A DNA stretch of 64,000 nucleotides from the NCBI RefSeq assembly GCF_014207565.1, contig NZ_JACHGJ010000014.1, positions 8,359-72,358 of the forward strand, written 5' to 3'. The first letter of the stretch is position 1. Every line of letters starts with the position of its first letter. The position numbers were made by a program, and so were the translations under genes. The notes under the pieces are model-generated. The model made no database searches. It saw only the letters and a program-made list of their open reading frames with translations, and was not told the DNA's origin. This DNA comes from Spirochaeta isovalerica (GTDB taxonomy: Bacteria > Spirochaetota > Spirochaetia > DSM-2461). Shown here one piece after another: positions 9,167 through 40,878 of this stretch.

Positions 9167-10305
9167 CAGAACGATTCCCGGAGAATCTCGAAAAGGCTGT
9201 CCGCCCCGACAGTCTGATTGACATTGGATAGCAGCGCCGAGGTAATATCGGAACAGATGGACAGTTCGTCGGATTTGATTTTCATCTCTTCCAGCCGGAC
9301 AGGCAGTTTATACCGGGCGATGATGCTTCTGACCATTGTGCTGAGAGAATCTCTCTCACCCAGGGAAGACCAACCAAGACCTTCTCTCAAAGCTTTGGCA
9401 GCCTGCCCCGCTCTATCGGTAGAGGAGTATATGGAGGAATCAAAAACATGGGGATAAAGGGTTGTAACCAGCGAAACGCGGGGAACCTTGTAATAGGACC
9501 CTGTTACATAGGCGAGCATCAATCCCGGTAATGGTCCAGTCATGGAGAGAGCCATAGCGGAACTGACTGAGGCCTCGCAGGCAATTTTTCTGAAATTCAA
9601 ATCCCCCTGATTCCCCGAAATCTTATCGAGAACCGAAGTGACTTTTCCAATGGCATCGAGTGCCGCTGTTTCAACAAGAAAGGACGATTGTCTGCTGATA
9701 TAAGCCTCAATGGATGAGAGGAGTATCTCCATTAAAGCCAGTAATGAATATTTTGCCGGAAGCGAGACAGTCAAAGTCGGATCGACAATGATCTGTTTTG
9801 TGCTGAATGGCGGCAGATGGGAAATCGACGAAGTTCTCTGCCGGCTTTCCGTTATAAAACAGGATTCCGAAAGAAGAAAAGGGTCTCGAAGAGATGTCGG
9901 CACGGAAATAAAGGGAAGTACGATTCTCCTGGTAACACGATCTGTAAAAAAATCATCGATATTGCCTTCTCCGGCAGCAACAAAAGCCACGGCTTTTGCA
10001 AAAGAAAGAGTGCGGACTCCGCCCAGGCCGACAATGACCTGGCTGTGGCTTCGTTCAGCGAGAGACACGGCTTCTTCAATGGAAAATGTGGAAGCTGAAG
10101 ATTTAACATCGCTGTAAACCAGCACCTTAAGATGCTTTTTCTCCAGAATGCCTTTTACGTAATCGAGAGTTCCTGTGCTTTTATGAACTGAATCGGAAAT
10201 GAGCAGAACCCGCTCGCCCCAGCTAGATGCCTCACTGCCGAGTCTTAAGATTTCCTTGTTTCCGAAAATAAGCGACCCGGGAAATTCCAATCTGATTTCA
10301 GCCAT
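9166..10305 (-). CDS. Iron-containing alcohol dehydrogenase / DHQ-synthase-like family protein, apparently degenerate
   Basis: Rossmann-like N-terminal half with the GLGGVRTLSFAKAVA glycine motif typical of Fe-ADH. I could not find the canonical metal-binding His motifs in the C-terminal half. Confidence 0.55.
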   Translation of the reverse strand: MAEIRLEFPGSLIFGNKEILRLGSEASSWGERVLLISDSVHKSTGTLDYVKGILEKKHLKVLVYSDVKSSASTFSIEEAVSLAERSHSQVIVGLGGVRTLSFAKAVAFVAAGEGNIDDFFTDRVTRRIVLPFISVPTSLRDPFLLSESCFITESRQRTSSISHLPPFSTKQIIVDPTLTVSLPAKYSLLALMEILLSSIEAYISRQSSFLVETAALDAIGKVTSVLDKISGNQGDLNFRKIACEASVSSAMALSMTGPLPGLMLAYVTGSYYKVPRVSLVTTLYPHVFDSSIYSSTDRAGQAAKALREGLGWSSLGERDSLSTMVRSIIARYKLPVRLEEMKIKSDELSICSDITSALLSNVNQTVGADSLFEILRESF

Positions 10306-29805: not shown

Positions 29806-31068
29806 TCAATAAATATACTGAACTCCAACCATTACAGAGACACCATCAACCATATCTACCCCGAGTTCCCAGACATCATTATCCTTGTTCCAGGAGAAGG
29901 TATCATCTCCATCGCCGATAAAGAAGTTGGTATAGCCGAGAAGATTGAACCCTTCAAAGACATTCCAGCTGAATCCGGCGGTCAGCATCGCTGACAGATC
30001 GATGGGGCTGAAAACACTCCGCAAAGAGAAGTTCAGATTCTGCCCGTAGGCAAAGGCGATTTCGGGATACAGCATTAGCGCATAAGTACCCGCGGATCCG
30101 GCATCCTCTCTCCAGTCGAGGAAGGGAAGAAAAACAGATTCCACCCGGAAGGTCAGAGAATTTCCGTAACCGACCTCCACCATATGAAAAAGCCCGAAAC
30201 TTATATTCCATGTGTCTTTTATAATGTCCGCCAGATCGTCTCCTGCCGCAAAGGGAATAGCCAGAGAGCAGTTCAGATAAAAATCAGCACCCAGGTTGCC
30301 CTGAATGGAAAAATACGGTCGCTGAAACGCGGGAATCGTCAGGGATTCATCTCCATCGGTGACTATAATATCGTAGTCGATGGTATCCGTTCCATCAAAG
30401 TAATATCCGAGTTCAACTTTCAGGTCGCCGAGCTTGGTATATACCCGTCCTCCCGCGCCGAGATCCAGGACATTGCCCAGTCCGACAGGCGTCGTCCCTG
30501 AAAAAATCATCTCAGGAGCCCGCAAAAGCAGTTCGATAAAGGAAAACCGACCCAGGGGAATGTTGACCGATGTCATCCAGGCTGTTTCCGTTCTCACTTC
30601 CGATCCCACAAGATTGACATTAGGGGAAATGCTGCCGAAGACAACATCTCCGGAGTTGAAGACAAAGCCGTCTCCCCACCCCAGTCTTGTCTTGCCCACA
30701 GTCAGACGGAAAGAAGGAAATTTCGCTTTTACATAAGCTTTCTGAAGGGTGATGACAGGAATTCCGGAGATATCGGGATAACTGAAATCAAGTGCGAAAT
30801 CAGCGCGGACATTAGCATTTCCAGTCGATTTGAAGGATAATGCTCCCGTACCGGCCATACCATACGCCCAGTATTTGTCACCGACAGATGGAAGCACGGG
30901 AGGAACCCATGTACCTCCGGCATCATGATATCCTTCCGTACCCGGATTTACTTCCCGGCTCTGCATCACCGTGTTATAGAGCGTCATATCAATTGTGATA
31001 TTGTTCTCAGCGGAGAGAAACGGCGCTGCCGCCAGAAGCAGCAGCACCGGAAATAAGCGCTTTACCAT
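29806..31068 (-). CDS. Putative outer-membrane beta-barrel protein, last gene of the GntR-SPFH-ABC-LolA-like operon
   Basis: Signal peptide MVKRLFPVLLLLAAAPFLSA. The 420-aa body shows alternating amphipathic beta-strand patterns rich in G/Y/F. The C-terminal aromatic ...GVQYIY is typical of beta-barrel OMPs. The start overlaps the upstream gene. Confidence 0.6.
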   Translation of the reverse strand: MVKRLFPVLLLLAAAPFLSAENNITIDMTLYNTVMQSREVNPGTEGYHDAGGTWVPPVLPSVGDKYWAYGMAGTGALSFKSTGNANVRADFALDFSYPDISGIPVITLQKAYVKAKFPSFRLTVGKTRLGWGDGFVFNSGDVVFGSISPNVNLVGSEVRTETAWMTSVNIPLGRFSFIELLLRAPEMIFSGTTPVGLGNVLDLGAGGRVYTKLGDLKVELGYYFDGTDTIDYDIIVTDGDESLTIPAFQRPYFSIQGNLGADFYLNCSLAIPFAAGDDLADIIKDTWNISFGLFHMVEVGYGNSLTFRVESVFLPFLDWREDAGSAGTYALMLYPEIAFAYGQNLNFSLRSVFSPIDLSAMLTAGFSWNVFEGFNLLGYTNFFIGDGDDTFSWNKDNDVWELGVDMVDGVSVMVGVQYIY

Positions 31069-31814
31069 GACAGTTCTTCCAGAGAGAAAAGGTTGTTGTC
31101 AAGCCGGATGTTGATTTCGATATCGTTGATTTTCATAACCGTTTCCGTGTCGGTTTTCATTTTGTCGACAATTCTGGTTTCCACACCGATCATCCTTCCG
31201 TTGATTTCCCGGGCCTGAAGAACTTCCATTTCCTTGAGGAGTCTTCCCGATTTGGTGTAATACTCCCCTTTCCATCCGAGGAAGCTCTCTTTGTCGATCC
31301 AGACTTTCTGTACGGGATAGGGTACGGTTCTCACGGTCGCCGTCATTTCCACGACGTAGCAGTCATGCCCTTTAAAGCTTTCCTCACCGAGCAGCTTTAT
31401 GTCATACTGGGATAACCGGTCTTTGTTGCCGGTCATATCCTCATAGGAAACATCGGACCCGAGCATGGACTGTCTGAGCATGGATCCCTGCATACGGATA
31501 AGTTCTTCCGCATCGGGGTAGTAGAGATAGAGCTCATCTTCCGTTCTGAGAACTTTCTGCCCTCTTTCCGCGGTACTGGTAAATTCGATGAGAGACTCGT
31601 CGGCCCCTCTGGACCAGGATTTGAATGTGCTGACTTTGGTGCCGAAGCGGTCTTTAATCCGCATTTCTCCGGTTGCCGCCGATGTGTCGAAAACCTGAAT
31701 ATCATCAGCTCTCCGGACGATTTCCTCCCCTGTCAAAGCCGTAAGGCTGACGGGAATCATCAGAGCTGCAATTACGATAGGTATAAATAATTTGTTTTTC
31801 ACATGAACCTCCAA
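31062..31814 (-). CDS. LolA-like periplasmic protein (outer-membrane lipoprotein-sorting protein family)
   Basis: Signal peptide, 250 aa, with the composition of the family usually found beside MacB/FtsX transporters. It sits 11 nt downstream of an FtsX permease. Confidence 0.6.
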   Translation of the reverse strand: MEVHVKNKLFIPIVIAALMIPVSLTALTGEEIVRRADDIQVFDTSAATGEMRIKDRFGTKVSTFKSWSRGADESLIEFTSTAERGQKVLRTEDELYLYYPDAEELIRMQGSMLRQSMLGSDVSYEDMTGNKDRLSQYDIKLLGEESFKGHDCYVVEMTATVRTVPYPVQKVWIDKESFLGWKGEYYTKSGRLLKEMEVLQAREINGRMIGVETRIVDKMKTDTETVMKINDIEINIRLDNNLFSLEELSW

Positions 31815-31825
31815 TTTCTCATTTC

Positions 31826-33061
31826 CTAAATATATCTCAGCGCTTCGACGGGCTGAATTCTCGCCGCTTTGCGTGAGGGTATAAGTGTGGCCAGCGAAGC
31901 CACGACTACAGAATAGAAGAAGACGAAAATGGTTCTTCCCGCTTTCAGCTGGGGATAGAGATAGGAAGATATCTCGAAATCCAGTCCGGACATGGCGTCA
32001 GTGAAATCGATCCCCACCCGGCTCAAATACAGGACGATGCCGATTCCCAATACCACTCCGATGGATGTTCCGATGATGCTGATGATTGTCCCTTCGAGAA
32101 AAAAGAGTCTGGTCAGCTCGCTGCCATGCATACCCAGAGCGCCGAGCGTACCGATTTCCCTCATTCTTTCGTAGATGACCATCATTGTCGTGTTGATGAT
32201 GACCGTGCTGCCGAGAATAAAGAAGATAAATGCCATCACGTTGTAAATCATATCCGCCAGCTTGAGAAAACCGTACGTCGTGCTTATCTGGTCCCATGAC
32301 CGGACATCGTATTCCGTTCCCGATCCGTTTTTCAGTTCTTCTCCCAGTTTTGCGGCAAAATCTTTTGCGTCGTATCCCTCTTTCATTTTTATAAGAACTT
32401 CCAGGACTTCTCCGTCCATTCTCAGGAAATACTGGGCCGTATCGAGTGGAATCCAGAAGAATTTGGCGTTCAGTTCACCGACGGGAAGAGCGAAGAGACC
32501 GACGATTTTAAGCGTAATGGCGTTGGTGCCCCTGGCTGCCGTTGTTGACATAACCGTTACCTTATCTCCTATTTTGAGATTGAGGTCCCGGGCCAGAACA
32601 GCCCCCATGATCATCTCTTTTTCTCCGTTTACAGGCAGGCGCCCTTCTTTCAGAGAGCTTTTGAAATCCATATAGGCGTCTTCTCTGTCAAAGTCCGCTC
32701 CGATTCCGACGGCTCCGAAATTGGATCCGCCGATGTAAAGGCTTGATGGGAAAGTCGTACGGGGAACAAAGCTCTCGATCTCTTCCATTCCCGCCAGAGC
32801 GTTCTCCACCTTTTCCTGATTCACAGTAAGGTGCATGGGGTTGTACCGTTCGAATTCCTCAAAACGGGCGTTCTTCACACGGACTTCGCCGGTGTAATAA
32901 TTGATCAGATTGTTTGCCATATCAGTACTCATTCCCGCTATGAGCGAGAACATCAGGACTATCGTCATGGCCGCGACTCCGATAGCCATTCCCGAAAGTA
33001 TAGACCTCCTGCGGTTTCGCGATATATTCCTGAAGGCTGTTTTCAACAGTTTCGTATTCAT
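31826..33061 (-). CDS. ABC transporter permease, FtsX/MacB-like with a large periplasmic domain
   Basis: N-terminal LKTAFRNISRNRRRS, a first TM, a ~230-aa periplasmic domain, then three C-terminal TMs in FtsX topology. Confidence 0.85.
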   Translation of the reverse strand: MNTKLLKTAFRNISRNRRRSILSGMAIGVAAMTIVLMFSLIAGMSTDMANNLINYYTGEVRVKNARFEEFERYNPMHLTVNQEKVENALAGMEEIESFVPRTTFPSSLYIGGSNFGAVGIGADFDREDAYMDFKSSLKEGRLPVNGEKEMIMGAVLARDLNLKIGDKVTVMSTTAARGTNAITLKIVGLFALPVGELNAKFFWIPLDTAQYFLRMDGEVLEVLIKMKEGYDAKDFAAKLGEELKNGSGTEYDVRSWDQISTTYGFLKLADMIYNVMAFIFFILGSTVIINTTMMVIYERMREIGTLGALGMHGSELTRLFFLEGTIISIIGTSIGVVLGIGIVLYLSRVGIDFTDAMSGLDFEISSYLYPQLKAGRTIFVFFYSVVVASLATLIPSRKAARIQPVEALRYI

Positions 33062-33073
33062 TTGTTCTCCCCC

Positions 33074-34321
33074 TTACTGATGTCTCAGGCAGGACGGAAT
33101 ATCCATCTTCAAAGCCCGTTTAGTCGGGAAATAAGCGACAAGCGACGAAATAACGATTCCCGCAATAAAAGCTTTCACCATGGTGCCGGGATTCCATTCA
33201 CCGCGGAAAACCCCCTGGATGCGGTAACCCATATCCATATCGCGCATGATCGATGTAAAGTCGATGCCTTTTTCCACTATAAAGAAATCCGCTCCCATTC
33301 CCAGGACCAGCCCGATCAGCGATCCGACGATTCCGATTCCCGCCGCTTCGATCATAAAAGCGATTCTGATCTTGCTGTCCGCCATCCCCAGAGACCTCAT
33401 CATGCCGAGCTCTCTGGTCCGCTCGAATATGGCCATCAGCATGGTATTGGAAATACCGACAGCCGCAATGATGAATATGAGGAACAGAATCATCCCGGTT
33501 CCACCCCTTTTGGCCTCAGCCAGAGCGAGAAAATCCTTTGCCATGGTTTCCCATCCCATAACGGTAAGTCCGTCTCCGTTCAGCATATTCTGAATTCTGA
33601 CAACTTCCGCGTCCACGTCGGCATTGGCCGGCAGCTTGATATTGATCTCTGTTGCCGCTCCATCCATTGCCAGATAATCATTGGCCGTTTCAAAGGGCAT
33701 CATGAGAAGCGTACGATTCACATTGGGGTTGGGACAGTTGAGAATCCCGACGATCTCGAGGTCCATTGCCTCGTAAAATCCGCCGTTTCCTCTGGCGACG
33801 ATGGTTATCCAGTAACCCACTTCGGCGCCGATGTCTTCGGCCATCCAGGATCCCATGACCACAGCATCTTCGCCCGGTTCAAGAAACCGTCCGTCCACAA
33901 GAGTGTCGCCGAACTCAAAAACATCAAAATCCTTCTCCGTATCAATGGCAAAGACGCTGACTGGAAGATTTCCCTCTTCACCGAAATCCTCTTTATTGAG
34001 AATAAGGTCTCCGCCGAAGCTGATTCTCTTGGTAGCGGCTATCTTTTCCGCTTCCAGTTTATTCAGAATCTTATCGGGATCGGCAATGCTGAGATCAAGC
34101 GGTTTCTGAAAACGGTTTGCCCAGTACTCCTCATTGAGAATTCTGGCCGAGGCCGTTTCGTACCATTTCAGGTTCCGGACCGATTCGTATTCGGCGCCCA
34201 TGAGCATGGAATCTATGAAAATATACATCATCAGCCCGAAAGCAATGGCACTCGCGGTTATGATTGTCCGTCTTTTATATCTGGTCAGATTTTTAAAGGC
34301 CAGTGAAATTAAAAATTTCAT
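33074..34321 (-). CDS. ABC transporter permease, FtsX/MacB-like (second permease)
   Basis: LAFKNLTRYKRRT N-terminus and FtsX topology. It is paralogous to 36624-37871. Confidence 0.85.
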   Translation of the reverse strand: MKFLISLAFKNLTRYKRRTIITASAIAFGLMMYIFIDSMLMGAEYESVRNLKWYETASARILNEEYWANRFQKPLDLSIADPDKILNKLEAEKIAATKRISFGGDLILNKEDFGEEGNLPVSVFAIDTEKDFDVFEFGDTLVDGRFLEPGEDAVVMGSWMAEDIGAEVGYWITIVARGNGGFYEAMDLEIVGILNCPNPNVNRTLLMMPFETANDYLAMDGAATEINIKLPANADVDAEVVRIQNMLNGDGLTVMGWETMAKDFLALAEAKRGGTGMILFLIFIIAAVGISNTMLMAIFERTRELGMMRSLGMADSKIRIAFMIEAAGIGIVGSLIGLVLGMGADFFIVEKGIDFTSIMRDMDMGYRIQGVFRGEWNPGTMVKAFIAGIVISSLVAYFPTKRALKMDIPSCLRHQ

Positions 34322-34323
34322 GG

Positions 34324-35001
34324 TTATCTCCTTTCGTCGCTCTGAATCTGCCCGTCGTGCAGCATAACTAATCTGCTGGCATACTCCATGACCATCTTGT
34401 CATGTGTCGAGAAAATGAAAGTTGTTTTGTGCTTTCTGTTCATCTCTTTCATCAGCTCCAGAATTTCTTTTCCCGTATCGGAATCGAGGTTGGCTGTCGG
34501 CTCGTCGGCGAGAACGATCTCCGGATTTTTAACCAGGGCTCTGGCTATGGCGACACGCTGCTGCTGACCTCCCGATAGCCTTGAAGGCCTTCTGTGCTCC
34601 ATCCCCTCAAGACCCACTTCTTTGAGAATAGCCATAGTTCTATCCTGTATCTCTTTTTCACCGAGGTTGAGAAGCGACAGCACAAAGGAGACATTTTCAT
34701 AGGCTGTCAGTACAGGGATCAGGTTATAGGTCTGAAAAATAAACCCGAGATTGTTCCGGCGGAAATTTGTCTTTTCCTTTTTATTCATAGATGAAATCTT
34801 TTCATCTTTTATTGAGATTTCACCGCCATCCATCTGATCAATGCATCCGATAAGGTTGAGCAGCGTGGTCTTTCCCGAACCGGAGGGACCGGCTATCGAG
34901 AGGAATTCACCTTTTCCAATCTCCAGAGATACGCCTCTCAGGGCTTTAACGACTGTTTCGCCGGCGTGATAATTCCGCACGACATTTTCAACTTTAATCA
35001 T
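34324..35001 (-). CDS. ABC transporter ATP-binding protein (LolD/MacB-type)
   Basis: Walker A GPSGSGKTT, the LSGGQQQRVAIARAL signature and Walker B ILADEPT. Length 225 aa. Confidence 0.92.
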   Translation of the reverse strand: MIKVENVVRNYHAGETVVKALRGVSLEIGKGEFLSIAGPSGSGKTTLLNLIGCIDQMDGGEISIKDEKISSMNKKEKTNFRRNNLGFIFQTYNLIPVLTAYENVSFVLSLLNLGEKEIQDRTMAILKEVGLEGMEHRRPSRLSGGQQQRVAIARALVKNPEIVLADEPTANLDSDTGKEILELMKEMNRKHKTTFIFSTHDKMVMEYASRLVMLHDGQIQSDERR

Positions 35002-36122
35002 TTTTCTCCTCCCGTCTCTTTATCTTCATGTACTGTTTCTTTGTTTTTCACCTGCCCGGGCAGGTCTTTGACTTTGTTCAGGGCAGCGGTTCCCATAACA
35101 GCCCCCAGATTCATATTATCCAGTGCCGAAGAAGGCATAAGCATCAGGCTGTTATTCTGCTTCAGCCCTTCGTATACCATATTCATGGCCCGGAGCTGGA
35201 GCGCCGTAGGGTTGCCGCTGTACTTCAGCGAAGCTTCTTCGAATTTCGCAGCCACTTCCACTTCCGCTTCTCCCAGGATAACCCGGGATTTCTTTTCTCT
35301 CTCCGCCTGGGCCTGCTTACTCATGGCATCCTCCAGCTCCTTGGGGATGATGATTTCCGTAATTTCAATGGAGAGGATTGTAATTCCCCAGGGATTGGTT
35401 TTCGCATCCAGCTTCTGCTGGATTTCATTACCCAGTTCTTCTCTTTCGGCCAGTAGAGTCGCCAGTTTATGCTTTCCGATCGCATCGCGGAGAGCCGTCT
35501 GTCCGGAGAGTGATACCGCTTCAAAATAATCCTCAACTTCCAGTACAGCCTGTTTCGGCTCCCAGATCATCCAGAATGCCAGGGCGTCCACATGGACGGG
35601 AACCGTATCGTTGGTCAATGTTTTTTCCGCAGTAAAGTCCGTCACCCGGATTCTCGTATCGACAAAAGCGGCGATTCTGTCCAGAAGCGGAATGAGAAAG
35701 AAAAGACCCGGACCATGAACTTTCTTGAACTTCCCGGCCCTGAGAATCACGACCTTGTCCCACTGATACACAAGCTGGATCGATGCGGAAATGACTATCC
35801 CCGCCGAGCCGGTCAGCATCAGCCATAGATAGGACCCTTCAAAGAGAGCGATAACATTGAGCTGAAGCGCGATAATCACAAAGATTACCATTGACCACAG
35901 CGGAAGGACCGTCAGGACGACCCCTGCTCCCAGTATGGCACCGGAAATCTTAACGATAGGCATCAGTTCCGATGACACGCCGTAGTTCACCTGAAAAAAA
36001 TATCCGGCCATGATAAACAGGCCGAGGAAGAGAAAAGAGACAGAACTGTAATGAAAATCCTTCTGGATTTTAAAACCTTTCATATTTTTGACTCTCTCTT
36101 CCCTGTTGTGCATGAGGTTCAT
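34998..36122 (-). CDS. SPFH/band-7 (stomatin/prohibitin-like) protein with a polytopic N-terminal membrane domain
   Basis: The N-terminal ~120 aa hold about four TM helices. The SPFH core follows, then a C-terminal coiled coil (QAQAEREKKSRVILGEAEVEVAAKFEEA). Start and stop overlap the neighbouring genes. Confidence 0.8.
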   Translation of the reverse strand: MNLMHNREERVKNMKGFKIQKDFHYSSVSFLFLGLFIMAGYFFQVNYGVSSELMPIVKISGAILGAGVVLTVLPLWSMVIFVIIALQLNVIALFEGSYLWLMLTGSAGIVISASIQLVYQWDKVVILRAGKFKKVHGPGLFFLIPLLDRIAAFVDTRIRVTDFTAEKTLTNDTVPVHVDALAFWMIWEPKQAVLEVEDYFEAVSLSGQTALRDAIGKHKLATLLAEREELGNEIQQKLDAKTNPWGITILSIEITEIIIPKELEDAMSKQAQAEREKKSRVILGEAEVEVAAKFEEASLKYSGNPTALQLRAMNMVYEGLKQNNSLMLMPSSALDNMNLGAVMGTAALNKVKDLPGQVKNKETVHEDKETGGEK

Positions 36123-36538
36123 TTTTTATTCCCTCCTCTTTCGTTTTCTGATTTTAAATCAGTCAGATAATCGATAATTTCATCGAGAGTAAAACCATAG
36201 GAACCGGCTTTGGAGATAAAAGTTTTCGTAATACCGGAGAGGACGCGCTCCCGCTCAACTTCATCGAGCTGAACTTCCTTTCTGCTGATGAATGTTCCCG
36301 TACCCTGCTGGGTATTGACGATGCCTCGTATTTCCATTTCGTTGTAGGCCCTGCCTACCGTATTGGGATTTATACGGAGATCCACGGCCAGGCTCCGCAC
36401 TGTGGGCAATTGCTCACCCTTGGTCAAGCGCCCGTCCGCTATGGCCATTTCCACCTGGAGAATAATCTGTTTGTAAAAAGGAACACCGCTCTTGGGGTCG
36501 AGACTGAATTCCAGTTTTTTTACTCCTGTTTCCGCCAC
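36119..36538 (-). CDS. GntR-family transcriptional regulator, short YtrA-like subfamily; first gene of the operon
   Basis: 139 aa. The winged-helix segment GEQLPTVRSLAVDLRINPNTVGRAYNEM is typical of GntR. GTG start with AGGAG RBS. Confidence 0.85.
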   Translation of the reverse strand: MAETGVKKLEFSLDPKSGVPFYKQIILQVEMAIADGRLTKGEQLPTVRSLAVDLRINPNTVGRAYNEMEIRGIVNTQQGTGTFISRKEVQLDEVERERVLSGITKTFISKAGSYGFTLDEIIDYLTDLKSENERGGNKK

Positions 36539-36559
36539 AGGTTTACTCCTATTGTCTAC

Positions 36560-36581
36560 TTGTACTATTCTTCTAGTACAA
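36560..36581. promoter_or_regulatory. Palindromic operator TTGTACTA-N6-TAGTACAA at the GntR operon promoter
   Basis: TGTACTA at 36561-36567 and TAGTACA at 36574-36580 are perfect inverted repeats. They lie 5 nt downstream of a minus-strand promoter with TTGACA (rc of 36609-36614), a 17-bp spacer and TATATT (rc of 36586-36591). A GT..AC core is typical of GntR operators. Confidence 0.7.
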
Positions 36582-36623
36582 TATAAATATAGCTCTTTAA
36601 TAAAAGGATGTCAAATTTAATTG

Positions 36624-37871
36624 CTACTGATGTTTCAAACACGATGAAATATCGAGCTTCAGCCCCCGATTTATCGGGAAGATGGCAACGAGAGTGGATA
36701 TGGCTGAAGAAGCCAGGGCGGAGAGAGCCATGGTAGACCAGTTCCACTCCCCCCTGAAAATAGCCTGAACCCGGTAGACGAGATCAAACTCCCGCGTGGC
36801 AAATCCGTAATCAATCCCCACATGAATGAGAAAGAAAACAGCAAATATCCCGAACAGAATCCCCACAAGAGCCCCGAGAAAACCGATGCCAGCCGCCTCC
36901 AGCAGAAACATTATCCGGATTTTCCCATCGGCCATCCCCATGGCACGCATCATCCCGATCTCACGGAAACGCTCATACATGGTCATCAGCATAGTGTTGG
37001 AAATACCTACAGCGGCAATAATAAAAATAAGAAAAAGAATGATGCCGCTCGAACTTTTCTCCATTTCCATCATGGACAGATAATCCTTCGCCAGGTCCTC
37101 AAAACCGAGAACCACAAGATCGGGATAATCCCGGAGAATAGCTCTGACGGAATCGATATCCTCTTCCTTTATATCAATTTCAGAAACGGTTCCCTCCAGA
37201 AAGAGATAATCATCCGCAGTATCCAGGGGCATCATAATAAGCCGCCGGTTTACCGTCGGATTGGGGCAATTGACAATGCCAAGCAATTCGAGATCCATTG
37301 CTTCGAAAAAGCCGCCCCGCCCTCTCGCCACAATGGTCACGACAGACCCGACTTCAGCTCCGATATCTTCAGCCAGCCACGAACCGAGAAGAATCCCTTC
37401 GTCTCCCGGATTGAGAAACCGTCCGTCCACCAGAGTATCGCGAAAGTGAAACACATCTTCGTCTCTGAGGGGATTAATGGCCGTAACCTGTACGGAAATA
37501 TTGCCGTCTTCTCCGAAATCCTGCTTATTGAGGATCATTTCACCGTAAAATTCCGTTCTTTCCGTCCCGTTGATACCCTGCCCGTTCAAACGGGCGATGA
37601 TTTCATCGGATCCGCTGAAATTATAATTGAGAGACTTCTGGACCCGGTTTTCCCAGTATTCCTTATGGAGAATTTTTGCTGATGATGTTTCATACCATTT
37701 TAAATTTCTGACGGACTCGCTGTCCGCTCCTTTGAGCATGGAGTCGATGAATATAAAAGAGACAACGCCGAAGGAGATGGCGAAAGCTGTAATCAAAGTT
37801 CGCCTTTTATGTCTGGCCAGATTTAATAGTGCCATTTTCAAAAGAAACATGGGTAATCCTCCAGCAATCAA
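36624..37871 (-). CDS. Orphan ABC transporter permease, FtsX/MacB-like; paralog of 33074-34321
   Basis: N-terminal LNLARHKRRT, FIDSMLKGADSESVRNLKWYETSSAKIL is nearly identical to the paralog. An alternative start at 37850 aligns better with the paralog. No ATPase gene lies beside it. Confidence 0.8.
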   Translation of the reverse strand: MIAGGLPMFLLKMALLNLARHKRRTLITAFAISFGVVSFIFIDSMLKGADSESVRNLKWYETSSAKILHKEYWENRVQKSLNYNFSGSDEIIARLNGQGINGTERTEFYGEMILNKQDFGEDGNISVQVTAINPLRDEDVFHFRDTLVDGRFLNPGDEGILLGSWLAEDIGAEVGSVVTIVARGRGGFFEAMDLELLGIVNCPNPTVNRRLIMMPLDTADDYLFLEGTVSEIDIKEEDIDSVRAILRDYPDLVVLGFEDLAKDYLSMMEMEKSSSGIILFLIFIIAAVGISNTMLMTMYERFREIGMMRAMGMADGKIRIMFLLEAAGIGFLGALVGILFGIFAVFFLIHVGIDYGFATREFDLVYRVQAIFRGEWNWSTMALSALASSAISTLVAIFPINRGLKLDISSCLKHQ

Positions 37872-37873
37872 AA

Positions 37874-37895
37874 TTGTACTAATACATTAGTACAT
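37874..37895. promoter_or_regulatory. Second copy of the TGTACTA-N6-TAGTACA operator, at the orphan permease promoter
   Basis: TGTACTA at 37875-37881 and TAGTACA at 37888-37894. The promoter has the same layout: TTGACA (rc of 37923-37928), a 17-bp spacer, TACATT (rc of 37900-37905), then 5 nt to the operator. Confidence 0.65.
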
Positions 37896-37943
37896 TAAAA
37901 ATGTAAACCCTGCGGTCAGGCTTGTCAAATTAATCCTGTAAAT

Positions 37944-38207
37944 ATGCTAAGATTGCCTATGCGGAAGGGAAAAATTCTTAAGGACATTCTGAAATTTCTG
38001 AATATATATCAGAATTCCATCATTCAATCGGATAACGAGACAGCCAATATCGAGCACTACCTGAGAGCCAAAGGACTCATGGACCTGGCGAGGTATTACG
38101 GAAGAACCGGAGTATTCGATAAGGACGTAATGGCTACTATCGATGGAGTATTCAAGGATATAGAGAATCTGACAATTTTACGGATTCGCGATGATCTCAA
38201 TAATTAG
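37944..38207 (+). CDS. Small hypothetical protein (87 aa), divergent from the orphan permease
   Basis: ORF with reasonable composition, no recognisable family. It shares the operator-bearing intergenic region. The 3' end overlaps the ftsK stop. Confidence 0.4.
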   Translation: MLRLPMRKGKILKDILKFLNIYQNSIIQSDNETANIEHYLRAKGLMDLARYYGRTGVFDKDVMATIDGVFKDIENLTILRIRDDLNN

Positions 38208-40878
38208 ATGAATCAGGCATATGGGAGTGTATAACCTCACGGGGCTTGCTGCCGTTCTGAGGACCGACAATTCCCATCTCCTCCATCTGCTCCACCAGTC
38301 TGGCTGCACGGTTATATCCGATTTTCAGCCTTCTTTGCAGATAGGAAGCCGAGGCTTTTCCCGCGGAAGAGACAATCTCCAGGGCTTTATTGAAAAGAGG
38401 GTCGACTGATCCTCCTCCGGCCAGAGAGGGTTCATCGCTTTCATCATCATCGATAAAAATTTCATCGTCAATATATTCCGGCGCGCCGAGGGTCTTAACG
38501 TATTCCACCACTCGCTCGACTTCTTCCTCTGACATAAAAGCGCCCTGGACACGGGAGGGGAAAGGATCCCAGGCTGATGTGAAGAGCATATCCCCTTTGC
38601 CGAGCAGCTTTTCAGCTCCTGCCGAGTCAATTATAATTCTGGAATCCATCATACTGGCGACCATAAAGGCGATTCTGGACGGAAAATTCGCTTTAATAAG
38701 ACCTGTAATGACATCAGCGGAAGGCCGCTGCGTAGCCAGAACCAGGTGGATACCGACAGCGCGGGACATAGCGGCCAGACGGGCGATCATGGCTTCCAGT
38801 TCCTTACCGCTGGTCGCCATCAGATCGGCGAACTCATCGATCACGAGAATCAGATAAGGAAGCTCTGTCGTTGCCAGTTTCCTCTCTTTAATCCTTTTGT
38901 TGTAACTCCTGATCTCCCGTACACCGACGCTGTCCAGAAGGGCATAGCGTCTTTCCATCTCATAAAGACACCACTGGATGGCCTGGATGGCTTTCTTCGG
39001 GTCGGTGATAACCGGTGTCAGAAGATGGGGTATATCATTATAGAGTTTCAATTCGACGATTTTCGGGTCGACCATAATAAGCTTCACATCGGCAGGAGAC
39101 CGCTCGTACAGGATGGAACAGATCAATGAGTTAACACAGACTGATTTTCCCGATCCCGTGGCCCCGGCGATGAGCAGGTGAGGGGTCCGGGTCAGGTCGA
39201 TAACCTGAACGCCGCCGCGGATGTCTTTTCCCAGAACGATGGGAACAGCCACATCCTGGTCTTTCATTTCCGGTGCCGTAACCATCTCGCTGAACGAAAC
39301 AATGGCTCTTTTCTTGTTGGGAACCTCAATACCGACAGCATGCTTTCCCGGTATGGGTGCGACAATCCTCACACGGGAGGCCGCAAGTCGCAAAGCAATG
39401 TTGTCTGCCAGGTTTGTAATGCGGGAGATTTTTACTCCCGGAGCCGGCAGAAGCTCAAACATGGTGATAACCGGCCCTTTTTTAATTCCCGTAACCTTTG
39501 CGGAGATTTTGAATTCCTCGAGCGTCACTTCAAGAACACGGGCTGCTTTTCTGGTTTCCTCGTCTATTTCCTGATATTTATCATCGGGGTATTCTGCCAG
39601 TACGCCTTCGACAGGAACGCTGTAATCATCCATATATGGCTGTCTCGGCTTGACGACTTCGCGGAGCACCCCACCCTCATCGCCTTCCACAGGAGCCAGC
39701 TTATCGGATATATCGCGATAGTCATCCAGTTCGTCCAGACGGTCTTCCAGATAACCGGCATCGCTGTAATCGCTGTCCTGAGCATACTCGTCAGAGAACT
39801 GGTCCGCCGCCTTATCCGGAAGATCCTCATTGGCTATATCTGTTTCATCATAGCCGTAATAACCTGAGTCACCTGACGGTTCATCTCTTGCATCGGAATA
39901 CTCATCTTCCTTCTTATCCGCTTTTTCGCCGGAGTTCCTGATCCGGTCAGTATCAAATGTCCGGACAGGCCTCTCATCCATACCCTCTGCGGCAGCGAGA
40001 ACATTGTCAAGCTCGGCAATTATCTCTGACATTTTTTCAGCAGCTTCATTCTGAGCCGCCGTATCACTGTGCTTGTGGTAGGTATAATCTCCCTGTCCCG
40101 TCAACTCATCAGCGAGATCCGCTTCATCATGCTCTCTGGAGAGAACATCAAATGCAGGATCGGATTCAATAAAGGGAGATTCCAGATCATCATAAAGATC
40201 TTCATCTTTAACAGGTTCAATATTTCCCGGTCTGGGCGGAGGAACCGGTTCGGATGAGACAGCGCCCGGGCCGCCGGACAAAATGGACGTAAAGATATCA
40301 TCAATCGATTCGGTTTGTTCATTATCAGGTCTGAAATCCGCTTCATCCGGTTCGGGAAATCTGAAAGCATATTCTTTAAAGGCTTCTTCTTCGCCATTTT
40401 CCTCTTTTCCAAAAGATTTCTCTTCCGGCTCGTACAATTCTTCCGTTTCAGAAGAAATATCCGAAAAATACCTCGGCAGAATTATTATGAGAAAAATTTC
40501 CAGAGCCGACAGGCTTCCCAGAAGAAAAAGAGAACGCCCTTTTCCCATAGATTCCAGCATTTTATTGATAAAATACGATCCCTCAGCGGTGAGCCAGATC
40601 CGGAAAAACAGAGAAACTGTCAGAAAGGGAATGACTGACAAGGTTAAAACGATAAGTGAGAGGGAATCAAGCTTATCCTTAAAAGACAGATATCCGTAAA
40701 GAATCATAAAAAAGGGAAGGTAGAAAGCGGGAAAGCTGAAAGATTCGAAGAGAAATCTCCCCGGTGCCGCAAGAAACGAACCCAATCCGCCTACTGCCAG
40801 CAGAAGAGATAAAGTGAGCAAAGCACCGATGCCATAAAATATATAGGATAATTTCTTTAAATCCATTCGAAAATTCAC
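38197..40878 (-). CDS. ftsK: DNA translocase FtsK/SpoIIIE
   Basis: N-terminal TM domain and a long acidic linker. The motor has Walker A GATGSGKSVCVN and a C-terminal gamma winged helix (LQRRLKIGYNRAARLVEQMEEMGIV). Length 893 aa. Confidence 0.92.
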   Translation of the reverse strand: MNFRMDLKKLSYIFYGIGALLTLSLLLAVGGLGSFLAAPGRFLFESFSFPAFYLPFFMILYGYLSFKDKLDSLSLIVLTLSVIPFLTVSLFFRIWLTAEGSYFINKMLESMGKGRSLFLLGSLSALEIFLIIILPRYFSDISSETEELYEPEEKSFGKEENGEEEAFKEYAFRFPEPDEADFRPDNEQTESIDDIFTSILSGGPGAVSSEPVPPPRPGNIEPVKDEDLYDDLESPFIESDPAFDVLSREHDEADLADELTGQGDYTYHKHSDTAAQNEAAEKMSEIIAELDNVLAAAEGMDERPVRTFDTDRIRNSGEKADKKEDEYSDARDEPSGDSGYYGYDETDIANEDLPDKAADQFSDEYAQDSDYSDAGYLEDRLDELDDYRDISDKLAPVEGDEGGVLREVVKPRQPYMDDYSVPVEGVLAEYPDDKYQEIDEETRKAARVLEVTLEEFKISAKVTGIKKGPVITMFELLPAPGVKISRITNLADNIALRLAASRVRIVAPIPGKHAVGIEVPNKKRAIVSFSEMVTAPEMKDQDVAVPIVLGKDIRGGVQVIDLTRTPHLLIAGATGSGKSVCVNSLICSILYERSPADVKLIMVDPKIVELKLYNDIPHLLTPVITDPKKAIQAIQWCLYEMERRYALLDSVGVREIRSYNKRIKERKLATTELPYLILVIDEFADLMATSGKELEAMIARLAAMSRAVGIHLVLATQRPSADVITGLIKANFPSRIAFMVASMMDSRIIIDSAGAEKLLGKGDMLFTSAWDPFPSRVQGAFMSEEEVERVVEYVKTLGAPEYIDDEIFIDDDESDEPSLAGGGSVDPLFNKALEIVSSAGKASASYLQRRLKIGYNRAARLVEQMEEMGIVGPQNGSKPREVIHSHMPDSSNY

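What the first reader, a model, noticed from the sequence alone, without database searches (positions are those of the whole stretch)
36560..37928. Identical promoter-operator module (TTGACA, 17 bp, -10, 5 nt, TGTACTA-N6-TAGTACA) in front of both the GntR operon and the orphan FtsX permease
The two 7-bp half-sites are perfect inverted repeats with identical spacing in both copies (36561-36580 and 37875-37894). Both sit at the same distance from a -35/-10 pair, just downstream of the predicted transcription start, which is the classic repressor position. The GT..AC core fits GntR-family operators. This suggests the YtrA-like regulator autoregulates its operon and also controls the orphan permease and possibly the divergent small ORF at 37944. 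That would define a compact regulon directly from sequence.
Basis: seen in the sequence. Interest (0 to 1): 0.6.

Follow-up and report, generated by a model that had tools for sequence, protein, structure and literature searches.

The report
YtrA-type repressor operator, two promoters
Two promoters in this Spirochaeta isovalerica window carry the same 20-bp palindrome across their start sites, and comparison with about 80 related species indicates it is the binding site of the neighbouring small GntR/YtrA repressor, an ordinary though well-conserved regulatory arrangement.

Summary
TGTACTA-N6-TAGTACA occurs exactly twice in the window, at 36561-36580 and 37875-37894. On the minus strand each copy lies 5 nt after a TTGACA-17 nt-TAnnTT promoter. 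One copy precedes a GntR-SPFH-ABC ATPase-FtsX-FtsX operon. The other precedes a lone FtsX permease that is a 56% paralogue of the operon's first permease.

In 80 other Spirochaetia species the same palindrome lies just upstream of the orthologous GntR gene. Its half-sites are nearly invariant, its spacer varies freely, and its distance from the -35/-10 elements is fixed. There is almost no other occurrence in 1.12 Mb. Close relatives carry one or two extra FtsX paralogues upstream of the operon, and in all but one contig each has its own copy of the cassette.

The regulator is a YtrA-subfamily protein. A search for the exact cassette in metagenomes found it mostly in front of YtrA-like genes, including very distant ones.

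This is therefore a new member of a known kind: a self-repressing YtrA/ABC-transporter module with one extra target, as in Bacillus subtilis YtrA. Control of the divergent small ORF is not supported. Binding, the transcription start and the inducing signal remain inferred.

The parts
36609..36614 (-). -35 hexamer TTGACA of the GntR-operon promoter (copy A)
   Evidence: At the same fixed position, 63 of 80 related loci match at least 5 of 6 bases.
36586..36591 (-). -10 hexamer TATATT (copy A), 17 nt after the -35
   Evidence: TAnnnT occupies the fixed position in 62 of 80 related loci.
36561..36580 (.). Operator A: TGTACTA-N6-TAGTACA, starting 6 nt after the -10 and so lying over the predicted transcription start
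   Evidence: It corresponds to the site conserved in front of the GntR orthologue in 80 species.
36119..36538 (-). GntR-family regulator of the YtrA subfamily (139 aa, GTG start); proposed repressor that binds both operators
   Evidence: PF00392 is the only Pfam domain. The best solved relatives are all short YtrA-type proteins. The structure model shows two C-terminal helices. It is 100% identical to a Spirochaeta isovalerica protein.
34998..36122 (-). SPFH/Band-7 membrane protein; its start overlaps the GntR stop by 4 nt
   Evidence: It follows the GntR gene in 77 of 78 related loci that could be evaluated.
34324..35001 (-). ABC ATPase, LolD/MacB-like
33074..34321 (-). FtsX/MacB_PCD permease 1 (FtsX1)
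31826..33061 (-). FtsX/MacB_PCD permease 2 (FtsX2)
31062..31760 (-). LolA_like (PF17131) protein, probably the next gene of the same operon
   Evidence: The same gene order is seen in L088 and L091.
29806..31068 (-). 420-aa protein with no family match; overlaps the LolA_like gene by 7 nt and is probably co-transcribed
37923..37928 (-). -35 hexamer TTGACA of the lone-permease promoter (copy B)
37900..37905 (-). -10 hexamer TACATT (copy B), 17 nt after the -35
37875..37894 (.). Operator B: TGTACTA-N6-TAGTACA, in the same position relative to its promoter as operator A
   Evidence: Equivalent cassettes precede the upstream FtsX paralogues in L087, L088-L090 and L091.
36624..37850 (-). Lone FtsX/MacB_PCD permease (408 aa from ATG 37850), a paralogue of FtsX1 with no ATPase of its own. 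Its stop lies 9 nt before the -35 of copy A, and no terminator was found between them
37945..38207 (+). Neighbour not shown to be a target: a small ORF (82 aa from ATG 37959) with its own extended -10 (TGc-TAAGAT, 37945-37953) 5 nt before the ATG, so probably leaderless
   Evidence: Homologues in relatives align from residue 6 of the 87-aa ORF, and TGnTAnnAT is conserved in 6 lineages.

Best explanation
The 20-bp palindrome is the operator of the YtrA-subfamily GntR regulator encoded at 36119-36538. A dimer of this protein binds TGTACTA-N6-TAGTACA. The site starts 6 nt after the -10 hexamer and so covers about -1 to +19 of each transcript. Binding there blocks RNA polymerase at two sigma-70-type promoters.

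One promoter drives the regulator's own operon: GntR, an SPFH membrane protein, an ABC ATPase, two FtsX/MacB-type permeases, and probably a LolA-like protein plus a 420-aa protein. The other drives a lone FtsX permease that is a paralogue of the operon's first permease. This permease has no ATPase of its own. It would have to use the operon's ATPase, most simply by replacing FtsX1 next to FtsX2, so co-repression keeps the parts expressed together.

No terminator separates the lone permease from the operon promoter. Transcripts from the upstream promoter would therefore run into operator A.

What is shown: the sequence anatomy, the family of the regulator, conservation of the site and its spacing, and its association with the gene. 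What is inferred: binding, repression, the transcription start and the pairing of subunits.

How repression is lifted is not known. YtrA proteins lack a ligand pocket, so the most likely route, by analogy only, is capture of the repressor by a membrane partner during envelope stress. That partner could be the ABC ATPase or the SPFH protein.
For: **The sites are real and specific.**
- Both sites are exact and far beyond chance.
- They belong to the two best promoter matches of the region.

**The regulator is YtrA-type.**
- It has a GntR wHTH domain only.
- It aligns over its full length with the solved YtrA-type proteins 4r1h, 3neu, 4ham, 3by6, 6sbs and 2du9.
- The structure model shows two C-terminal helices, H93-113 and H118-134.

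**The site is conserved as a protein-binding site.**
- In 80 other Spirochaetia species with GntR 59-95% identical, a site with 3 or fewer mismatches lies within 260 nt upstream of the gene in all 80 loci that have upstream sequence. 77 of them have 2 or fewer mismatches.
- G2/C19 is invariant in 80 of 80. Half-site information is 1.2-2.0 bits per position, against 0.1-0.9 in the N6 and about 0.1 in the leader.
- In 1.12 Mb of these loci only one site with 2 or fewer mismatches lies elsewhere.
- The -35 and -10 sit at the same fixed distance in 63 and 62 of the 80 loci. The distance to the start codon ranges from 2 to 115 nt.

**The second target recurs.**
- Extra FtsX1-type paralogues upstream of the operon each have their own cassette in L087 (two cassettes), L091 (two) and L088-L090 (three in series).

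**The cassette tracks YtrA genes more widely.**
- The exact 23-base cassette pattern matches 114 metagenome stretches. Of 77 evaluable loci, 62 are followed by a YtrA-like GntR gene, some only 28-41% identical to this one. Most others are followed by ABC-transporter genes.

**Precedents exist.**
- B. subtilis YtrA binds AGTGTA-13 bp-TACACT in front of its own ABC operon and one other operon (PMC8060467).
- Sulfolobus YtrA represses its own operon and one other membrane-protein locus through a motif over the transcription start (PMC6746942).
Against: - No binding, transcription-start or expression data exist for this organism.
- The structure model has only moderate confidence (mean pLDDT 68).
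- One metagenomic relative, L086, has the lone permease with -35 and -10 but a decayed palindrome, so control of the extra permease is not universal.
- The closest species, L006 and L007, lack the extra permease altogether.
- The rest of the genome could not be scanned, so further targets, or sites unrelated to these genes, cannot be excluded.
- Two cassette matches in metagenomes precede other regulators: a BlaI-type repressor in L114 and a phage AbrB-like gene in L139. The DNA pattern is therefore not exclusive to YtrA proteins.
- The induction mechanism rests on analogy alone.
Confidence: 0.85

Rival explanations
1. The palindrome acts as RNA. It would form a 7-8 bp stem-loop at the very 5' end of both mRNAs that stabilises the transcript or affects translation, without any repressor.
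For: If transcription starts where predicted, the palindrome is in the leader. It folds at -9.0 kcal/mol for copy A (z = -3.3) and -6.9 kcal/mol for copy B (z = -0.7).
Against: The sequence itself is conserved, not just the pairing. At the one variable pair (positions 5/16) the counts are CG 47, CA 14, TG 13 and TA 4. The two sides therefore vary independently: 3.8 double changes are expected and 4 are seen, and 14 loci carry a C-A mismatch. The element keeps a fixed distance from the -10, but its distance to the start codon varies from 2 to 115 nt. Copy B folds no better than shuffled sequence. A secondary stabilising effect of the hairpin is not excluded.
Confidence: 0.04
2. The palindrome is an operator, but for a regulator encoded elsewhere rather than the adjacent GntR protein.
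For: Association by neighbourhood is indirect. The same cassette also precedes a BlaI-type repressor gene (L114) and a phage AbrB-like gene (L139).
Against: The site lies in front of the orthologous GntR gene in 80 of 80 species, and in front of YtrA-like genes in 62 of 77 evaluable metagenome matches, across contigs of 44-72% GC. All of those proteins share the recognition region P-x-(V/I)-R...NPNT. The shape of the site fits YtrA operators: distal GT/AC and TGTA-N12-TACA, against TGTA-N13-TACA in B. subtilis (PMC8060467, PMC4494728).
Confidence: 0.05
3. Only copy A is functional. Copy B is a decaying remnant of the duplication that produced the lone permease and has no regulatory role.
For: The permease is a paralogue of FtsX1. 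In L086 the corresponding palindrome has decayed while the -35 and -10 remain. L006 and L007 lack the gene.
Against: Copy B has 14 of 14 half-site bases and the same spacing, while its 17-nt spacer and N6 have diverged completely. That pattern is what selection on the functional elements produces. The paralogues are old, at 56-69% identity. Perfect cassettes are nevertheless kept in front of upstream paralogues in L087, L088-L090 and L091.
Confidence: 0.05

Closest known systems
Bacillus subtilis YtrA with ytrGABCDEF and ywoBCD
   Same: Both are short GntR/YtrA repressors encoded in an ABC-transporter operon that includes an FtsX-domain protein (YtrF). Both use a long palindrome with distal TGTA/TACA: AGTGTA-13 bp-TACACT in B. 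subtilis. In both, the site is present in front of the regulator's own operon and one other operon (PMC8060467, citing Salzberg 2011; PMC12772383).
   Different: The half-site spacing is one base shorter here (TGTA-N12-TACA) and the half-site sequence differs (TGTACTA). The organism is a diderm spirochaete. The transporter is LolCDE/MacB-like and comes with SPFH and LolA-like partners. The second target is a paralogous permease subunit rather than an unrelated operon. No NCBIfam model places the protein as an equivalog of a named YtrA-type regulator.
Streptococcus salivarius MbrR-MbrAB (bioRxiv 10.64898/2026.02.18.706565)
   Same: MbrR is a YtrA-type repressor that binds a palindrome with a conserved G and C 17 bp apart, the same separation as G2/C19 here. 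It represses its own ABC operon and further units. That regulon contains several ABC systems and a flotillin (SPFH) protein.
   Different: MbrR is shown to be captured by its ABC ATPase when bacteriocin is sensed. Nothing of that kind is tested here. The streptococcal flotillin is a separate unit, whereas here the SPFH gene overlaps the repressor gene and is its most constant neighbour. The paper describes conservation of the circuit across Bacillota, although YtrA-like proteins are found across bacterial phyla.
Sulfolobus acidocaldarius YtrA (PMC6746942; PDB 6sbs)
   Same: The regulon is very small: its own operon plus one other membrane-protein locus. The motif covers the transcription start, and additional half-sites flank the core motif. 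6sbs matches this protein at E = 4.6e-10.
   Different: It is archaeal. Its core motif is 14 bp with closely spaced half-sites, and it has no ABC transporter.
Staphylococcus aureus PmtR and the Mycobacterium Rv1152 family (NCBIfam models)
   Same: These are the best full-length profile matches (PmtR 59.8 bits, Rv1152 family 75.3 bits). Both are short GntR regulators, and the PmtR model's name links it to an ABC exporter.
   Different: The scores are far below the family cut-offs of 200 and 170 bits, so the spirochaete protein is not a member of either family.

Membership tests
GntR family, YtrA subfamily | N-terminal GntR-type winged helix-turn-helix domain | tested here: met
   PF00392, E = 7.9e-15, residues 22-84, and the only Pfam domain found.
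GntR family, YtrA subfamily | Reduced C-terminal domain of about 50 residues with two helices (PMC4494728) | tested here: met
   The protein is 139 aa. The model shows H93-113 and H118-134 after the wHTH, at mean pLDDT 68. It aligns over its full length with the YtrA-type structures 4r1h, 3neu, 4ham, 3by6, 6sbs and 2du9.
GntR family, YtrA subfamily | Gene in an operon with ABC-transporter genes (PMC4494728) | tested here: met
   The GntR, SPFH, ABC ATPase and two FtsX genes have overlapping or closely spaced ends. The order is conserved in most of 80 species.
GntR family, YtrA subfamily | Long palindromic operator with the conserved GT/AC far from the centre (PMC4494728, PMC6746942) | tested here: met
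   The palindrome is 20 bp. G2 and C19 are invariant in 80 of 80 loci and lie 17 bp apart.
GntR family, YtrA subfamily | The protein binds the operator and represses transcription | not testable with these tools
   This needs EMSA or footprinting and a deletion mutant.
PmtR (NF047563) / Rv1152 family (NF053730) | Score above the curated cut-off of the family model | tested here: not met
   59.8 bits against a cut-off of 200, and 75.3 bits against a cut-off of 170.
MbrR-type circuit in which the transporter captures the repressor | YtrA repressor co-encoded with an ABC ATPase, and a regulon of transporter and SPFH genes | tested here: met
   The comparison is with bioRxiv 10.64898/2026.02.18.706565.
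MbrR-type circuit in which the transporter captures the repressor | Physical, ATP-dependent capture of the repressor by the ATPase | not testable with these tools
   No complex-prediction or interaction assay was available.
LolCDE lipoprotein-release transporter | Scores above the equivalog cut-offs for LolD and LolC/E | tested here: not met
   LolD TIGR02211 scores 226 bits against a cut-off of 307.75. lolCE TIGR02212 scores 92.8, 150.7 and 98.8 bits against a cut-off of 362.45. The architecture is alike: one ATPase, two MacB_PCD/FtsX permeases and a LolA_like protein.

The most novel reading that the evidence does not exclude
The spirochaete locus would be a diderm version of the circuit in which a transporter captures its repressor, with three features not described for YtrA systems.

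1. The constant partner of the repressor is a translationally coupled SPFH membrane protein rather than the ATPase, and this protein could be the anti-repressor.
2. In many relatives the operator is an array of 7-bp boxes in strict 8-bp phase that extends over the -10 and spacer, which suggests the repressor spreads across the promoter.
3. Whole promoter-operator cassettes are repeated in series, each adding an interchangeable FtsX1-type permease subunit to a single ATPase.
Probability: 0.2. Interest if true: 0.5.

Novelty: new member of a known kind. Interest (0 to 1): 0.3.

Why it matters
The result gives a ready-made, testable regulatory unit for a group with almost no characterised transcription factors: a repressor, its operator and two target promoters in free-living spirochaetes. 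It extends the YtrA/ABC-transporter paradigm from Gram-positive bacteria and archaea to a diderm phylum. There the transporter looks like a LolCDE/MacB-type envelope machine with SPFH and LolA-like partners. The conserved cassette could serve as a tightly repressed promoter for spirochaete genetics. It could also serve as a search key for YtrA regulons in metagenomes. The finding does not change how this class of regulators is understood.

Tried and rejected
- **RNA hairpin.** It folds, but there is no covariation, and the element is anchored to the -10 rather than to the start codon.
- **Recent duplication or mobile repeat.** Rejected, because only the functional elements match between the two copies.
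- **Genome-wide regulon.** The genome-contig scan did not return S. isovalerica itself, and only loci can be fetched. Extra targets in this genome could therefore not be listed. The two 3-mismatch hits in the window are not in promoter positions.
- **Prior report of the motif.** Full-text searches for TAGTACA or TGTACTA together with GntR, ABC transporter or repressor found only unrelated uses such as DgoR. The stored supplement of Suvorova 2015 is cut and showed only DgoR sites. Salzberg 2011 is not held.
- **Spirochaete literature.** No paper on a spirochaete GntR/FtsX repressor was found.
- **Control of the small divergent ORF.** Considered and not supported.
- **Flawed data point.** The L086 permease entered the paralogue tree in the wrong frame, so that branch is meaningless and was ignored.
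- **Not run.** Fold search was skipped because the model confidence was moderate and the sequence match to solved YtrA structures was already clear.

Full report
**Observation.** The window contains exactly two copies of TGTACTA-N6-TAGTACA, at 36561-36580 and 37875-37894. No further copy appears when 2 mismatches are allowed (expected 0.02). At 3 mismatches two more hits appear, at 2794 and 9489. One overlaps the stop end of an ORF and the other lies inside an ORF, and the expectation at that threshold is 0.64.

All relevant genes are on the minus strand. Read on that strand, both copies have the same layout: TTGACA, 17 nt, a -10 hexamer (TATATT or TACATT), 5 nt, the palindrome, a Shine-Dalgarno sequence and a start codon. 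These are the two best sigma-70-type matches in 31000-38400. The 17-nt spacers and the N6 differ between the copies, so only the functional elements are shared.

**Genes.** Copy A precedes a tight operon.
- A 139-aa GntR protein, with PF00392 as its only domain.
- An SPFH/Band-7 protein whose start overlaps the GntR stop.
- An ABC ATPase.
- Two FtsX/MacB_PCD permeases.
- A LolA_like protein and a 420-aa protein with no family match.

Copy B precedes a lone FtsX/MacB_PCD permease that is 56% identical to the operon's first permease and has no ATPase of its own. Its stop codon lies 9 nt before the -35 of copy A, and no terminator was found there. The GntR protein is 100% identical to a Spirochaeta isovalerica entry.

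**The regulator is YtrA-type.** Its best solved relatives are all short YtrA-type proteins (Lmo0741 4r1h, 3neu, 4ham, 3by6, Sulfolobus YtrA 6sbs, Corynebacterium 2du9), aligned over nearly the full length. A structure model from 34 orthologues shows the wHTH followed by two helices, at moderate confidence (pLDDT 68). The best NCBIfam matches are the Rv1152 family and PmtR. Both score far below their cut-offs, so it is not a member of a named equivalog family.

**Phylogenetic footprint.** A scan of one genome per species with an alignment of orthologues returned 80 further Spirochaetia loci, with GntR 59-95% identical.
- In all 80 loci that have upstream sequence, a site with 3 or fewer mismatches lies within 260 nt of the gene. 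39 are perfect, 28 have one mismatch and 10 have two (this tally also includes the S. isovalerica locus L001).
- In 1.12 Mb of these loci there are 77 sites with 2 or fewer mismatches, and 76 of them are at this position.
- When the loci are anchored on the palindrome without gaps, the half-sites carry 1.2-2.0 bits per position, the N6 0.1-0.9 and the leader about 0.1. A -35 (cTTGACa) and a -10 (TAtA.T) also emerge at fixed columns.
- The -35 matches at least 5 of 6 bases in 63 of 80 loci, and TAnnnT is present in 62 of 80. The distance to the start codon ranges from 2 to 115 nt.
- G2 and C19, the GntR GT/AC core, are invariant.

The operon order GntR-SPFH-ABC-FtsX-FtsX holds in most loci. The GntR-SPFH pair is present in 77 of the 78 loci that could be evaluated, even where the ABC genes differ.

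**The second target.** Copy A is the orthologue of the single site in the nearest species, L006 and L007, which lack the extra permease. Homologues of the lone permease lie upstream of the GntR operon in other relatives, and in most of them each has its own cassette.
- L087 has two cassettes.
- L091 has two.
- L088-L090 have three in series: two permease paralogues, then the operon.
- One contig, L086, keeps the -35 and -10 but has lost the palindrome.

These upstream paralogues form a sister group to the operon's FtsX1. In still other lineages a third FtsX1-like gene sits inside or after the operon. Extra FtsX1-type subunits are thus a recurrent theme. In this subclade they are usually tied to the same operator.

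**Beyond spirochaetes.** The exact cassette pattern has 23 specified bases. It matched 114 metagenome stretches.
- Of 77 evaluable loci, 58 are followed by a GntR gene detectable with this protein. Four more are followed by a more divergent 121-aa GntR.
- Many of these regulators are only 28-41% identical to this one, come from contigs of 44-72% GC, and share the recognition region P-x-(V/I)-R...NPNT.
- Most of the remainder precede ABC ATPases, HlyD-MacB-type pumps, or a LolA_like plus DUF1302 pair. In two of these the GntR gene lies further down the same operon.

The operator and its placement are therefore a widespread YtrA feature, not a spirochaete invention.

**DNA site or RNA hairpin.** The palindrome would fold in the leader. 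However, the variable pair 5/16 changes independently on each side (CG 47, CA 14, TG 13, TA 4), the sequence rather than the pairing is conserved, and the element is anchored to the -10. A protein-binding DNA site fits these facts; an RNA structure does not.

**Mechanism.** With a start about 7 nt after the -10 (general knowledge of sigma-70 promoters), the operator spans about -1 to +19. That is a repressor position.

I infer the following.
- The YtrA-like dimer represses both promoters.
- The operon is autoregulated.
- The lone permease is co-expressed with the only ATPase it can use.

How the signal arrives is open. YtrA proteins have no evident ligand pocket (PMC4494728, PMC6746942). In streptococci the repressor MbrR is captured by its ABC ATPase when bacteriocin is sensed, and its regulon includes a flotillin (bioRxiv 10.64898/2026.02.18.706565). 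A similar capture is plausible here but untested.

**The small divergent ORF.** Its homologues in relatives align from residue 6 of the 87-aa reading, so the real start is probably ATG 37959 (82 aa). Six lineages share TGnTAnnAT 5-6 nt before that ATG, which is an extended -10 and implies a leaderless transcript. The operator lies about 64 to 132 nt upstream of that start, with variable insertions between. Direct control by the repressor is therefore not supported.

**Comparison and verdict.** The closest known systems are listed here.
- B. subtilis YtrA, which binds AGTGTA-13 bp-TACACT in front of its own ABC operon and one other operon (PMC8060467).
- Sulfolobus YtrA, which represses its own operon and one other membrane-protein locus through a motif over the start, flanked by extra half-sites (PMC6746942).
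- Streptococcal MbrR.

The comparative survey of GntR motifs did not cover spirochaetes, and I found no paper giving this motif. This is a new member of a known kind. Interest is modest.

Noticed in passing
L006-L085, promoter regions upstream of the GntR gene (for example L016 1440-1520, L042 1870-1950): Extra 7-bp boxes lie in strict 8-bp phase with the core palindrome. Forward TGTAYTA (1 mismatch or fewer) starts at -16 in 40 of 77 loci, at -24 in 14 and at -8 in 12. Reverse TARTACA starts 2 nt after the palindrome in 12 loci and at internal offset 5 in 21. The background rate predicts about 0.1 loci per position. The upstream boxes overlie the -10 and spacer. The two S. isovalerica cassettes have weak or no outer boxes.
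   Followed up: partly
window 37945-38207 (+): The small divergent ORF probably starts at ATG 37959 (82 aa). It has a conserved extended -10 (TGc-TAAGAT, 37945-37953) 5 nt before that ATG, so it is probably leaderless. It has no family match. It stays next to the first cassette in two different upstream contexts: FtsK in most loci, and a thiolase cluster in L091.
   Followed up: partly
L088-L090, 9900-12700: Three promoter-operator cassettes lie in series, at 9959, 11310 and 12651. They drive two FtsX1-type paralogues and then the GntR operon, within about 2.8 kb.
   Followed up: yes
L086 1480-1570: In a metagenomic relative (GntR 90% and permease 79% identical), the lone-permease promoter keeps TTGACA-17-TAATGT. 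The palindrome has decayed and the start codon is TTG.
   Followed up: partly
L093-L171 (for example L108, L125, L130, L131, L133): Distant YtrA-like regulators (about 123 aa, 28-41% identical, contigs of 44-72% GC) carry the identical cassette. In several the ORF starts only 4-10 nt after the palindrome, leaving no room for a Shine-Dalgarno sequence.
   Followed up: no
L114 1302-1355 and L139 3284-3337: The same 23-base cassette also precedes a BlaI-type (Penicillinase_R) repressor gene, and an AbrB-like gene in a phage-like region of 30% GC. These may be chance matches or a shared TGTA/TACA dyad preference.
   Followed up: no
window 29806-31760 (-); L092: The operon continues with a LolA_like (PF17131) gene and an overlapping 420-aa gene with no family match. 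In L092 the same cassette drives a LolA_like plus DUF1302 pair on its own. The 420-aa protein may therefore be an outer-membrane partner.
   Followed up: partly
window 34998-36538 (-); L006-L085: The SPFH gene overlaps the GntR stop by 4 nt. It follows the regulator in 77 of 78 evaluable species, including those where the LolD/FtsX genes are replaced or absent. It is thus the regulator's most constant partner.
   Followed up: partly
GntR protein residues 110-116 (window about 36191-36211): The first C-terminal helix ends in a motif, K-A-x-S-Y-G-F, whose named residues are invariant or nearly so in 34 orthologues of 64-96% identity. It is a candidate dimer or partner-contact surface.
   Followed up: no
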